Below are positions 18,896 through 21,533 of a DNA stretch of 64,000 bases, one piece after another. The stretch comes from an uncultured delta proteobacterium (GTDB taxonomy: Bacteria; Myxococcota; Myxococcia; Myxococcales; Myxococcaceae). Positions within the stretch are counted from its first letter, which is position 1. Every line of letters begins with the position of its first letter. The notes beneath the pieces are model-generated. The model ran no database searches. It was not told the DNA's origin and saw only the letters and a list, made by a program, of their open reading frames with translations. The stretch covers positions 224,001 through 288,000 of the forward strand of contig CAWCKH010000003.1 of assembly GCA_963796055.1 (NCBI GenBank). Reading direction: 5' to 3'. The position numbers and the translations under genes were made by a program.

Positions 18896-19609
18896 CTACC
18901 GGGTCGAGCCTGCGCGGAGACGCAGCGCCCCGTAGACCCCCGCCTCGGCATAGGTCGGAACTGCGCTCGGTCGGCAGCCCCAGCCGTTCATCACCAGGGT
19001 GAGGCGGAGCTCGCCACGGAACCTGAGCCGCGACGCCGGCACGGCGTTCCGCGCATCGAGCACTCCGTGGGTCAGTCGCCCGTCGAACATCGCCAGCCGG
19101 TTCGGTCTCGGAGCGACCAGATCCGCCTGCAGCGGGAGCGGGACCAGTGCTGGGTGCCGTGCGTCCGGCGGCTGGGCGGTGACCGCGAGCGCCCCGCCCC
19201 GGACCCGGTTGAGGAACAGCACCGAGGAGACGCGCGGATGGCGGTCCGGACCGCCTGCCTGCGCCAGCCGCTCGTCCCGGTCGCGGTGGAAGTCGACCCG
19301 CACGTCGTGGGTCCACATCCGGGAGAGCCACCACTCGACTCCCCGCGCGCCTCGCCCGCGGAAACGGTTCCCGAGTGCCACGAGGGCCAGCTCGGGCACG
19401 GCGACCGGAGTCGCGTCGAGGTCGAACCAGAAGGTGGTCTGGTAGGTCCTCCGGACTCCCTCGGAGCCGAGACGGCGGACACTCCGCTGCAGCCTCCGGA
19501 ACAGCGCCAGGGGGAGTGCCGGCTCGATGAGCTCGACCAGTCGCTCCGGTGCCGGTGGACGGGTCCGCCGTCGGCGGGTGCCTGCCCCGGTCGCGCTGGC
19601 CACGGTCAT
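18896..19609 (-). CDS. Putative 2OG-Fe(II)-dependent oxygenase
   Basis: HxD (FHRD), SSVLFLN, GG.L.V, P..NRL..FDG.L.HGV (distal His) and R.T...N. ATGA overlap with the upstream methyltransferase. Confidence 0.65.
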   Translation of the reverse strand: MTVASATGAGTRRRRTRPPAPERLVELIEPALPLALFRRLQRSVRRLGSEGVRRTYQTTFWFDLDATPVAVPELALVALGNRFRGRGARGVEWWLSRMWTHDVRVDFHRDRDERLAQAGGPDRHPRVSSVLFLNRVRGGALAVTAQPPDARHPALVPLPLQADLVAPRPNRLAMFDGRLTHGVLDARNAVPASRLRFRGELRLTLVMNGWGCRPSAVPTYAEAGVYGALRLRAGSTR

Positions 19610-20433
19610 CCGCCGGACCTACCGAACTGCGGATGACCGAGGACCGCCCGTTCCAGCTCCGGGGTCAGCTCGGCGAGTCCATGCGGTGCCCTTGCGCTCG
19701 AACGGCGCCAGCGCTGTAGCCACCTCTCCCCGAGCGGTGCGGTGAGGACTGCGGGTCCCAAGCTGGCCACGGTGGTTTCCTTCTTCACCGCCGCGGCGAC
19801 CCCTGCGCCCACCCAGAAGCCCGCGAGCAGGAGCGTGACCCGGGTCCGCGTCGATGCGCTGTACGTCGACAGTAGCCCACCCGGGGCGAGGACCTGCCTG
19901 AACCGGCGAAGGGCCTGGATGGTCCACAGCTCCGGGTTGGCCTCGGGCGAGAAGGGATCGAGGCAGATGACGTCCTGGGGCGCGTCGAGGCGGCCCAGTG
20001 CCTCCAGCGCATCGCCCTCGATCCAGGTCCAGCGGAGTCCGGGCGCCTCGACCGAGCGGCCGGCAAGCAGCGCGTCGAGCAGCGCGCGGTGAGCGGCCTG
20101 CACCGGAAAGCGCGCCGGGTCCCCGAGGGCGAGCTGAAGCGCCCCCTCGTCCTTCTCGAGGCTGGTCAGCGCGAGCATCCGCCCCTGCACCCGCCGCGCG
20201 CAGTCGATCACCGCCAGCGCGTTGGTCGCCGCGCCGAGACCCACGTCCAGCACCCGCACCGGCCCTGCCTCGCCCGAGGAGAGCCGTTCCGCCAGCCGGG
20301 TCTGCTCCACGTAGAGCAGCTCGGCCTCACGCCGGGGGCCTAGGCCGGGGTGCATGATCTCCCCCGAGCGACGATCGCGGATGCTGATTTCGCCGTTGCC
20401 CAGCACCACCGACTCGAAGTCGTTCAGCCCCAC
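19606..20433 (-). CDS. MnmC/MnmD-family SAM-dependent methyltransferase
   Basis: [36 protein letters not shown] and LSTYS motifs. GTG start overlaps the tgt 3' end. Confidence 0.8.
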
Positions 20434-21533
20434 AGCGCGCGCATCTCGTCGGCCAGCGCGGCGAAGCGCCCGGCGAGGATGGCCTCCCGGATCCGGCCCA
20501 TCAGCACCTGGTAGTGGCGGAGGTTGTGGATGGAGAGGAGCCGGCTCCCCAGCGCGTGCTTTCCCCGCATCAGGTGGTGCACGTAGGCCCGACCGTGCCG
20601 CCGGCACGTGAAGCAGTCACAGGTCGGATCGAGCGGAACCTCCTCCAGCCGGTGCACCATCCGCGTGATCCGCACCAGTCCCTGGAAGGTGTAGGCGTAG
20701 CCCTGCTGGGCCATCTTGGTGGGGATGATGCAGTCGAACATGTCGACTCCCCGTTCGACCGCCTCGGCGAGGTCCAGCGGGGTCCCCACTCCCATCAGGT
20801 AGCGCGGCCGGTCCACCGGAAGCTGCCCGGCGACCCGGAGGGTCATCGCGTCCCGGTGCGGCTTCTCCTCGCCCACCGCCAGCCCACCGATGGCGAACCC
20901 GTGGAACGGCAGCCGGGTGAGGAAGTCCACGCTCCGGTCGCGGAGCTCGGGGTGGATGCCGCCCTGGACGATGCCGAAGAGCGCCTGGCCGGTGTCGCGC
21001 CCCTGTGCGGCCTCCAGGCTCCGGACCGCCCAGCGGTGCGTCCGCTCCATCGCCTCCCGCGCCGGCTCGAGCTCCGCCCGAGCGTCGTGGACCACATCGA
21101 GCACCATCATGATGTCCGAGCCCAGCGCCTGCTGCATGGCGATGCTGCTCTCGGGCGAGAGCAGCTGGCGGCTGTTGTCGTGGAAGCTCCGGAAGTGCGC
21201 GCCCCGCTCGGTGATCTCCCGGTCCTCGGGGAGGCTGAAGATCTGGTAGCCGCCGGAATCGGTGAGCACGCACCCGTCCCACCCCATGAAGCGGTGGATG
21301 CCGCCCAGCCGCTCGAAGACCTCCCGCCCGGGCCGCAGCATCAGGTGGTAGGTGTTCCCCAGGAGGATGCGCGCCCCCGCCTCCCCCGCCTCGTCCACGC
21401 TGACGTGCCGGAAGGCGGCGTGCGTCGCCACCGGCATGAAGACCGGCGTCGGCACGTCGCCGCGGCGGGTGTGGAGCACGCCGGCCCGGGCCAGCCCGAC
21501 CGTCCGCTCGAGGGTGAATCGCAGGGTGCTCAC
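20424..21533 (-). CDS. tgt: tRNA-guanine transglycosylase family protein (divergent)
   Basis: TP.FMPV, NTYHL.LRPG, TDSGGYQ, FGIVQGG, GGLAVGE, RYLMGVG, DMFDC, and the Zn site CDCFTC...HN. Confidence 0.92.

What the first reader, a model, noticed from the sequence alone, without database searches (positions are those of the whole stretch)
18896..21533. Divergent TGT, MnmD-like methyltransferase and 2OG-Fe(II) oxygenase operon: candidate new base-exchange and hypermodification pathway
Seen: three overlapping genes on the minus strand (10-nt overlap tgt/MTase, ATGA overlap MTase/oxygenase). The TGT keeps both catalytic Asp residues (DSGGYQ, MFDC) and the Zn site, but its surface motifs are remodelled: [11 protein letters not shown] versus the usual FMPVGT..TVK, and PTKMAQQG versus PTRNARNG. 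No queA/queG/queC-F genes are in the window. Known: TGT swaps G34 for preQ1, which carries a free aminomethyl group. MnmD methylates the aminomethyl group of nm5U34. 2OG oxygenases hydroxylate modified bases. Inference: the trio may insert a 7-deazaguanine and N-methylate its aminomethyl group instead of making Q, with possible further oxidation, or it may act on a non-standard RNA.
Basis: partly seen in the sequence, partly recalled or inferred. Interest (0 to 1): 0.75.

Follow-up and report, generated by a model that had tools for sequence, protein, structure and literature searches.

The report
Second TGT paired with amine methyltransferase
This bacterium carries an extra copy of the enzyme that swaps a queuosine precursor into tRNA, paired with an amine methyltransferase whose usual substrate it appears unable to make, so the pair may produce an undescribed methylated base in RNA; the third gene looks like a bystander.

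Summary
The three overlapping genes are real. The tgt is a paralog (TGT2): the genome also has queA-tgt, queC, queF and queG. TGT2 forms its own clade, keeps the catalytic and preQ1-pocket residues, but has lost Arg286/Arg289, invariant in 21 of 21 canonical TGTs. The MnmD-like methyltransferase travels with TGT2: 92 of 93 longer homologues are TGT fusions, and in 111 phylum genomes all 27 with the methyltransferase have TGT2. It does not follow MnmEG, which makes MnmD's usual substrate nm5U: 12 of those 27 lack both mnmE and mnmG. This genome lost both at an intact syntenic site, yet keeps the methyltransferase under purifying selection (dN/dS about 0.2). Best reading (about 50%, untested): TGT2 inserts preQ1 at a tRNA G34, possibly outside the GUN set, and the methyltransferase makes N-methyl-preQ1, so far found in print only in phage DNA. 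The 2OG oxygenase is linked only in this genus and is probably not part of it. The fusion is listed, uncharacterised, in one preprint. This scan reached the same idea on three other genomes; the MnmEG loss is what this one adds.

The parts
20424..21533 (-). TGT2: paralogous bacterial-type tRNA-guanine transglycosylase, 369 aa. Keeps D92/D267 (Z. mobilis Asp102/Asp280), D146, Q190, G217, V220, M247 and the Zn site; has K273 and Q276 in place of Arg286/Arg289, R42 for Lys52, V148 for Cys158
19606..20433 (-). MnmD (MnmC2/DUF752)-like SAM-dependent amine N-methyltransferase, 275 aa, of a clade that is fused or adjacent to TGT2; intact DPF catalytic motif (D159), motif I, Y191; the only PF05430 gene in the genome
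18896..19609 (-). 2OG-Fe(II) oxygenase-like gene, 237 aa (H108-x-D110, H181, R202); a real, conserved gene, but linked to the pair only within this genus and probably not part of the pathway

Best explanation
TGT2 and the methyltransferase are a two-step RNA modification unit that runs beside the normal queuosine pathway. Step 1 (activity inferred from intact residues): TGT2 cuts out a guanine at a U33-G34 anticodon loop and inserts preQ1, which the cell makes with QueC/QueF or salvages. Step 2 (inferred from fold, motifs and gene linkage): the MnmD-like enzyme uses SAM to methylate the free aminomethyl nitrogen of the inserted preQ1. This is the chemistry MnmD does on the aminomethyl of nm5U34, and it would give N-methyl-preQ1 (7-methylaminomethyl-7-deazaguanine, +14 Da over preQ1), capping the amine that QueA would otherwise use. 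Because TGT2 never replaced the canonical TGT in the genomes checked, and its Arg286/Arg289 region is remodelled, the more likely target is G34 tRNAs with a base other than U at 35 (about 60% of this reading); a subset of GUN tRNAs is the alternative. Shown: paralogy, residue pattern, linkage, independence from MnmEG. Inferred: base, product, order of steps, target.
For: Canonical queA-tgt, queC, queF and queG are in the same genome. All 46 of 50 genomes with a TGT2-level match also hold a second TGT. TGT2 is one clade against 21 canonical TGTs, SH-aLRT 100 (quick tree). In 120 non-redundant TGT2 sequences Asp102, Asp156, Gln203, Gly230, Ala232, Val233, Met260, Asp280 and the four Zn ligands are invariant and Cys158 is kept in 119; Cys158 with Val233 is the preQ1-type pocket (PMC3660597). 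Arg286 and Arg289 occur in 21 of 21 canonical but 5 and 4 of 174 TGT2 sequences. 92 of 93 longer MTase homologues are TGT+PF05430 fusions. 61 of 80 loci have tgt fused or directly upstream. In 111 phylum genomes all 27 MTase carriers have TGT2 and 83 have neither (with for the split gene of G007). 13 of the 27 lack mnmG, 12 also lack mnmE, while 68 of 82 mnmG genomes lack this MTase. In G000 both genes are gone from a contiguous syntenic site, with no MnmM, MnmL, MnmC1 or Elp3 over cut-off. The MTase keeps median dN/dS 0.22 in the genus. MTase distances follow TGT2 (r 0.70), not canonical TGT (r 0.29), in 16 genomes. Three fusion-bearing genomes hold a separate MnmC/MnmD outside the clade. The best structural match is A. 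aeolicus MnmC2, and the catalytic Asp is invariant in 107 of 107. N-methyl-preQ1 exists in phage DNA.
Against: No biochemical or expression evidence. Three Bdellovibrionota genomes (G047, G051, G052) carry a clade MTase with only a canonical TGT and with mnmG, and four others carry extra solo copies, so the MTase does not always need TGT2. G027 has TGT2 and no detected MTase (the gene ends 181 bp from a contig end). 12 of 46 TGT2 genomes show no QueF (completeness not given), so preQ1 supply is unproven there. 14 of 27 MTase genomes do have mnmG and usually no other PF05430 gene, so a second role on nm5U is open. This genus has Cys158Val, which in Z. mobilis raises KM for preQ1 from 0.9 to 16 uM. 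The role of Lys52/Arg286/Arg289 in reading U35 is recalled, not confirmed by any paper I could open. Linked genes are co-inherited anyway, and kin genomes are not independent.
Confidence: 0.5

Rival explanations
1. The pair works together, but the chemistry differs. The MTase methylates the free preQ1 base before insertion, or another amine on the TGT2-bound RNA; or TGT2 inserts another 7-deazaguanine (preQ0, pre-methylated preQ1) or mainly serves as an anticodon-binding platform for the MTase.
For: All linkage evidence fits this equally. Cys158Val in this genus lowers preQ1 affinity in Z. mobilis. No QueF was found in 12 of 46 TGT2 genomes. N-alkylated preQ1 analogues can be inserted by TGT (PMC9561289, search listing). 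A DPF motif also serves the N2-guanine methylase Trm1.
Against: MnmC2 acts on tRNA-bound aminomethyl groups through a narrow pocket. TGT2 keeps both catalytic aspartates in 120 of 120 representatives and is no less conserved than canonical TGT (mean distance 0.58 vs 0.71), which a pure scaffold need not be. preQ0 has no amine to methylate (established chemistry).
Confidence: 0.22
2. Ordinary reading: the MTase is the genome's MnmD (nm5s2U to mnm5s2U) and TGT2 is a redundant Q-pathway TGT; two wobble-modification genes simply became neighbours and fused.
For: It is the only PF05430 gene in G000 and in most myxobacteria checked. The closest structure is MnmC2. TGT2 passes the Tgt equivalog cut-off. 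Solo clade members exist in mnmG-positive genomes without TGT2.
Against: mnmE and mnmG are absent here and in 12 of 27 MTase genomes, from four families, including closed genomes. The MTase stays under purifying selection there. 68 of 82 mnmG genomes lack it. Some fusion-bearing genomes keep a separate MnmC/MnmD. It scores below the MnmC2 equivalog cut-off. TGT2 never stood alone in 46 genomes.
Confidence: 0.1
3. Same two-step chemistry, but on a non-tRNA target: an rRNA or mRNA hairpin, or DNA as in Dpd systems.
For: Bacterial TGT accepts any UGU hairpin, an mRNA and some DNA hairpins. The remodelled region could shift the target. N-methyl-preQ1 is known from DNA.
Against: TGT2 is about 50% identical to the canonical TGT of the genome and keeps the G263/T264/D267 region. 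No neighbour cluster besides the pair reached more than 10 of 80 loci. No MTase relative was found in viral contigs, phages or plasmids.
Confidence: 0.1
4. One reading: the 2OG-Fe(II) oxygenase further hydroxylates or demethylates the product.
For: ATGA overlap in the window. Close linkage in 10 of 12 other genomes of the genus, the same genus that has Cys158Val. dN/dS 0.21.
Against: Unlinked in all 22 genomes outside the genus that have it, present in two genomes without TGT2, not found in 21 TGT2 genomes. Seen in 2 of 80 MTase loci. A hydrolase gene separates it from the MTase in three genus members.
Confidence: 0.04

Closest known systems
Bacterial tRNA-guanine(34) transglycosylase Tgt (TIGR00430, PF01702; Z. 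mobilis, E. coli)
   Same: Fold (TM about 0.94), catalytic Asp102/Asp280, guanine/preQ1 pocket including Val233, Zn site, 44-50% identity.
   Different: A second copy beside a canonical queA-tgt; separate clade; Arg286/Arg289/Asn290 not kept, Lys52 often Arg or Thr; no queA in 80 loci of the pair; tied to a methyltransferase.
MnmD / MnmC2 / DUF752 (PF05430, NF033855; A. aeolicus 3VYW, E. coli MnmC N-domain)
   Same: Best sequence and structure match; motif I, DxF catalytic Asp, motif VI Tyr and SAM-binding acids kept.
   Different: Below the equivalog cut-off (85 vs 136 bits); own clade; kept in genomes without MnmE/MnmG, which supply nm5U; co-inherited with TGT2.
TGT-MnmC2 fusions listed in bioRxiv 10.1101/2023.12.21.572861
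   Same: Same two domains (PF01702 + PF05430); the window holds the split form.
   Different: In the passages I saw the preprint only lists the fusion, in a genome set filtered for MnmA/G/E; no function, paralogy or MnmEG-independence is given there.
Phage DpdA + DpdM making mdPreQ1 in DNA (bioRxiv 10.1101/2023.04.13.536721)
   Same: Same logic and same proposed base: a transglycosylase inserts a 7-deazaguanine, a methyltransferase N-methylates the aminomethyl group.
   Different: DNA, phage-encoded, DpdA subfamily, and DpdM is a DUF3109 metal-binding fold; here a tRNA-type TGT and a class I Rossmann MTase on bacterial chromosomes.

Membership tests
Bacterial Tgt (Q pathway) | Score above the TIGR00430 equivalog cut-off | tested here: met
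   424.7 bits vs 306.75
Bacterial Tgt (Q pathway) | Catalytic Asp102 and Asp280, guanine pocket Asp156/Gln203/Gly230/Met260, Zn site | tested here: met
   Invariant in 120 of 120 representatives and in the window; most residue roles recalled, Asp102 and Asp280 seen
Bacterial Tgt (Q pathway) | preQ1-type pocket Cys158 + Val233 | tested here: inconclusive
   Val233 invariant; Cys158 in 161 of 174, but Val in the window's genus; meaning from PMC3660597
Bacterial Tgt (Q pathway) | Conserved PTR..RNG motif (Arg286, Arg289) and Lys52 | tested here: not met
   21 of 21 canonical vs 5, 4 and 52 of 174 TGT2; window K/Q/R. Their role at base 35 is recalled
Bacterial Tgt (Q pathway) | Groups with the housekeeping TGT and is the genome's queA-linked tgt | tested here: not met
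   Separate clade; canonical queA-tgt elsewhere in the genome
Bacterial Tgt (Q pathway) | Inserts preQ1 at G34 of GUN tRNAs | not testable with these tools
   Needs an assay
MnmD / MnmC2 | PF05430 fold with DxF catalytic Asp and SAM motifs | tested here: met
MnmD / MnmC2 | Score above the NF033855 equivalog cut-off | tested here: not met
   85.1 vs 136 bits
MnmD / MnmC2 | Host encodes MnmE and MnmG, the source of nm5U34 | tested here: not met
   Neither in G000; both missing in 12 of 27 MTase genomes
MnmD / MnmC2 | Methylates nm5(s2)U34-tRNA | not testable with these tools
   Needs an assay
Dpd DNA-modification system | DpdA-type transglycosylase in a cluster of conserved dpd genes or on a phage | tested here: not met
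   Bacterial tRNA-type TGT; no widely conserved neighbours; MTase not found in viral, phage or plasmid sets. PADLOC models were not run
2OG-Fe(II) oxygenase superfamily | HxD...H iron triad and 2OG-binding Arg | tested here: met
   H108, D110, H181, R202; patterns in 115-117 of 119 homologues; PF13640 on P0134; no direct Pfam hit

The most novel reading that the evidence does not exclude
TGT2 has dropped the requirement for U35 and, with its methyltransferase, installs N-methyl-preQ1 at G34 of tRNAs outside the Asp/Asn/His/Tyr set. That would be a new tRNA nucleoside and would extend 7-deazaguanine wobble modification beyond GUN anticodons, in Myxococcota, Bdellovibrionota, Verrucomicrobiota and Leptospira, in parallel with queuosine.
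Probability: 0.3. Interest if true: 0.85.

Novelty: new variant of a known kind. Interest (0 to 1): 0.62.

Why it matters
If right, it adds a tRNA nucleoside and a branch of 7-deazaguanine biology to several bacterial phyla, and shows an MnmD-fold enzyme re-aimed from a uridine to a deazaguanine. A TGT that no longer needs U35 would also widen RNA-labelling tools built on TGT. Even if the product is wrong, databases that call these proteins plain Tgt (names) are missing a conserved second function. Organisms like this one, with the pair but no MnmEG, are clean test cases: any methyl the enzyme adds cannot be mnm5U made by the known route.

Tried and rejected
Oxygenase as third pathway member: rejected on linkage. 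Only-TGT reading: rejected. Assembly gap as the cause of missing mnmEG in G000: rejected by synteny with G011. Three rows that lacked mnmG but have mnmE (two share coordinates) were dropped from the 'no MnmEG' count as likely gaps. Alternative nm5U routes: no Elp3, MnmL, MnmM or MnmC1 over cut-off in G000; not tested in other genomes. Conserved neighbours that might name the target: none; tRNA genes in 2 of 80 loci. No Rfam match in the window and no informative promoter or terminator. RNA runs: no RNA holder listed. A complex prediction of TGT2 with the MTase never ran, so binding is untested. Papers confirming what Lys52/Arg286/Arg289 touch: not found (searches; look-ups). A characterisation of the fusion or of methyl-preQ1 in RNA: not found in searches (open-access library only). 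Both trees are quick searches without bootstrap; the MTase outgroup has long branches. The motif patterns for three MTase motifs were mis-sized and printed nothing; one search carries that check.
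Full report
1. Observation. A helicase gene diverges upstream and hsp20 converges downstream, so the unit has at most three genes. The genome (G000) is 5.53 Mb in 7 contigs, 98.5% complete; loci with 92-94% identical TGT come from records titled Myxococcaceae.

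2. The tgt is a paralog. G000 has a second tgt, 50% identical, directly behind queA, plus queC, queF and queG, so ordinary Q synthesis is covered. I call the window gene TGT2. Of 50 genomes chosen from the 80 MTase loci, 46 have a TGT2-level match and all 46 also have a second TGT. I fetched 20 of the weaker matches (17 from TGT2 genomes, 3 from genomes without). With the G000 copy they fall outside a TGT2 clade of 42 sequences (SH-aLRT 100, stem 0.44; quick tree). queA lies beside 11 of those 20 within the short flanks fetched, and in 0 of 80 loci of the pair.

3. What TGT2 kept and lost. Numbering follows the alignment to Z. mobilis TGT; the model matches that fold at TM about 0.94. In 120 representatives under 85% identity (from 174 sequences), Asp102, Asp156, Gln203, Gly230, Ala232, Val233, Met260, Gly263, Asp280 and the Zn ligands are invariant, position 235 is acidic, and Cys158 is kept in 119. 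Cys158 with Val233 marks the preQ1-type pocket (PMC3660597, passages). The window's genus is the exception with Val158, which in Z. mobilis raises KM for preQ1 from 0.9 to 16 uM and leaves guanine unaffected. Arg286, Arg289, Asn290, Val282 and Lys52 are invariant in 21 of 21 canonical TGTs. In TGT2, Arg286 and Arg289 survive in 5 and 4 of 174, and are replaced by varied residues rather than one new invariant one. From memory these residues contact U35 and the nearby backbone. [quoted passage not shown] The Lys52 change goes with Glu339 to His in 68 sequences, so part of it may concern the dimer interface (recalled). TGT2 is not decaying: dN/dS 0.08 in the genus, and mean distance 0.58 against 0.71 for canonical TGT in the same 16 genomes.

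4. The methyltransferase is MnmD-like and tied to TGT2. Best matches are A. aeolicus MnmC2 by sequence (E 2e-13) and by structure. The catalytic Asp of the DxF motif and the SAM motifs described in PMC3527978 (passages) are kept; the Asp is invariant in 107 of 107 sequences. It misses the MnmC2 equivalog cut-off and sits in its own clade. Among longer homologues (8000 candidates scored), 92 of 93 are TGT+PF05430 fusions, with names from Myxococcota, Oligoflexia, Opitutaceae, Betaproteobacteria and Leptospira. Of the best 80 of 589 genome loci, 31 are fused, 30 adjacent, 1 is 4 kb apart and 18 show no tgt, 4 of these for lack of upstream DNA. For 6 of the 12 solo cases followed up, TGT2 lies 7-21 kb away on the same contig; in 2 it is on another contig. 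In an even sample of 111 phylum genomes at 92% completeness or more, 27 have the MTase and all have TGT2 (26 whole, G007 split), one has TGT2 alone (G027) and 83 have neither. MTase distances follow TGT2 (r 0.70, partial 0.67), not canonical TGT (r 0.29, partial 0.06), in 16 genomes; linkage alone can produce this.

5. It does not follow MnmEG. MnmD methylates nm5U34, which MnmE/MnmG make (established). G000 has neither, nor MnmM, MnmL, MnmC1 or Elp3 over cut-off. The loss is real: in G011, the one genus member of 13 that keeps mnmG, mnmE and mnmG lie between blocks that map in order onto one G000 contig, with about 200 bp where mnmG was and other DNA where mnmE was. In the phylum sample 13 of 27 MTase genomes lack mnmG. 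Twelve of them, from four families, also lack mnmE, and one with mnmE was dropped. Of 32 mnmG-negative genomes tested, 29 lack mnmE, while 13 of 13 mnmG-positive controls have it. 68 of 82 mnmG genomes lack this MTase. In the mnmEG-less genus the MTase has median dN/dS 0.22 (11 sequences, 55 pairs). Three fusion-bearing genomes keep a separate MnmC or MnmD-like gene outside the clade (G075, G085, G086). G000 is GC-rich and rarely uses the A-ending codons concerned (AAA 3%, GAA 8%, CAA 5% of their pairs), which makes the loss plausible.

6. Results against. G047, G051 and G052 have a clade MTase, mnmG, queA-tgt and no TGT2; their completeness was not given. G049 has the MTase and no TGT match at all. 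Four genomes hold extra solo copies with unrelated neighbours. G027 has TGT2 without the MTase; the 181 bp left downstream show no MTase start. QueF was not found in 12 of 46 TGT2 genomes, though their canonical TGT would face the same need for salvage. Where mnmG is present the clade MTase is usually the only PF05430 gene, so it could also act on nm5U there.

7. The oxygenase. It is a real 2OG-Fe(II)-type gene. In 60 genomes it was found in 33. It is near the pair in 10 of 12 other genus members, with a hydrolase gene in between in three checked, and unlinked in all 22 genomes outside the genus, two of which lack TGT2. It was not found with this query in 21 TGT2 genomes. I treat it as a local neighbour.

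8. Mechanism. Most likely TGT2 exchanges a G in a U33-G34 loop for preQ1 and the MTase N-methylates its aminomethyl group, giving N-methyl-preQ1 (about 50%). The amine is chemically the same kind of group MnmD handles, and it is the only such amine the partner enzyme could supply. Constant coexistence with canonical TGT and the remodelled 286/289 region favour G34 tRNAs without U35; competition with QueA on GUN tRNAs is the alternative, and would also explain the solo MTases. Rivals: other chemistry or order (22%), plain MnmD plus redundant TGT (10%), non-tRNA target (10%), three-enzyme route (4%).

9. Known and new. The fusion is listed without function in bioRxiv 10.1101/2023.12.21.572861 (passages), in a genome set filtered for MnmA/G/E; its supplement, which I could not see, lists those proteins and may say more. 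N-methyl-preQ1 is described in phage DNA, made by the unrelated DpdM (bioRxiv 10.1101/2023.04.13.536721, passages). Six searches of the open-access library found no characterisation of the fusion and no methyl-preQ1 in RNA. Other papers seen as passages: PMC10103133, PMC4425180, PMC8136771 (UGU recognition), and PMC1635277, PMC10424219, PMC6165067 (nothing on the residues); PMC9561289 as a search listing only. This scan proposed the same idea for fused genes in three other genomes; those are unchecked AI notes, read after I had stated my reading, and are not support.

10. Verdict. Observation confirmed; interpretation partly supported (pair yes, trio no). An uncharacterised, widespread variant built from two known enzyme families, with a specific and cheap test. 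Interest 0.62.

Noticed in passing
G000:C4:1359691-1363504 (outside the window): mnmE and mnmG are both missing from an otherwise syntenic, contiguous site; 12 of 13 genus members lack mnmG, as do all 8 sampled genomes of family f7 and 13 of 14 of f14. Repeated loss of MnmEG in GC-rich Myxococcota.
   Followed up: yes
G000:C4:1337869-1338846 (L005): A second, divergent QueA-like gene (149.7 bits) lies next to a short-chain dehydrogenase-like ORF (label by eye).
   Followed up: partly
window 20424-21533, residue 148: Cys158Val occurs only in this genus (13 of 174 TGT2 sequences), the eukaryote-type residue, while Val233 stays bacterial.
   Followed up: partly
G000:C4:16390-31621: Three tRNA-His(GUG) predictions within 15 kb, possibly integration-site remnants.
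   Followed up: no
window 16033-17949 and 24311-25939: Two ABC-F-type ATPase genes flank the region; ABC-type ATPases fall in 10 of 80 MTase loci, the commonest neighbour cluster, probably because the family is large.
   Followed up: partly
P0096: A radical SAM (PF04055, PF16199) plus PF05430 fusion, the YtqA/MnmC2 type already described in the preprint; it falls outside the TGT2-linked clade.
   Followed up: partly
G189; G021: G189 has three TGT2-level matches and one MTase; G021 has one TGT2 without an adjacent MTase and a second, frame-split TGT2 in front of an MTase.
   Followed up: no
L152, L154 (G083, G071): Solo members of the MTase clade sit head-to-head with leucyl-tRNA synthetase; L084 follows a suf cluster.
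   Followed up: no
window 12084-15933: A Ppx/GppA-like gene and a divergent polyphosphate-kinase-like gene (labels by eye from the ORF list).
   Followed up: no
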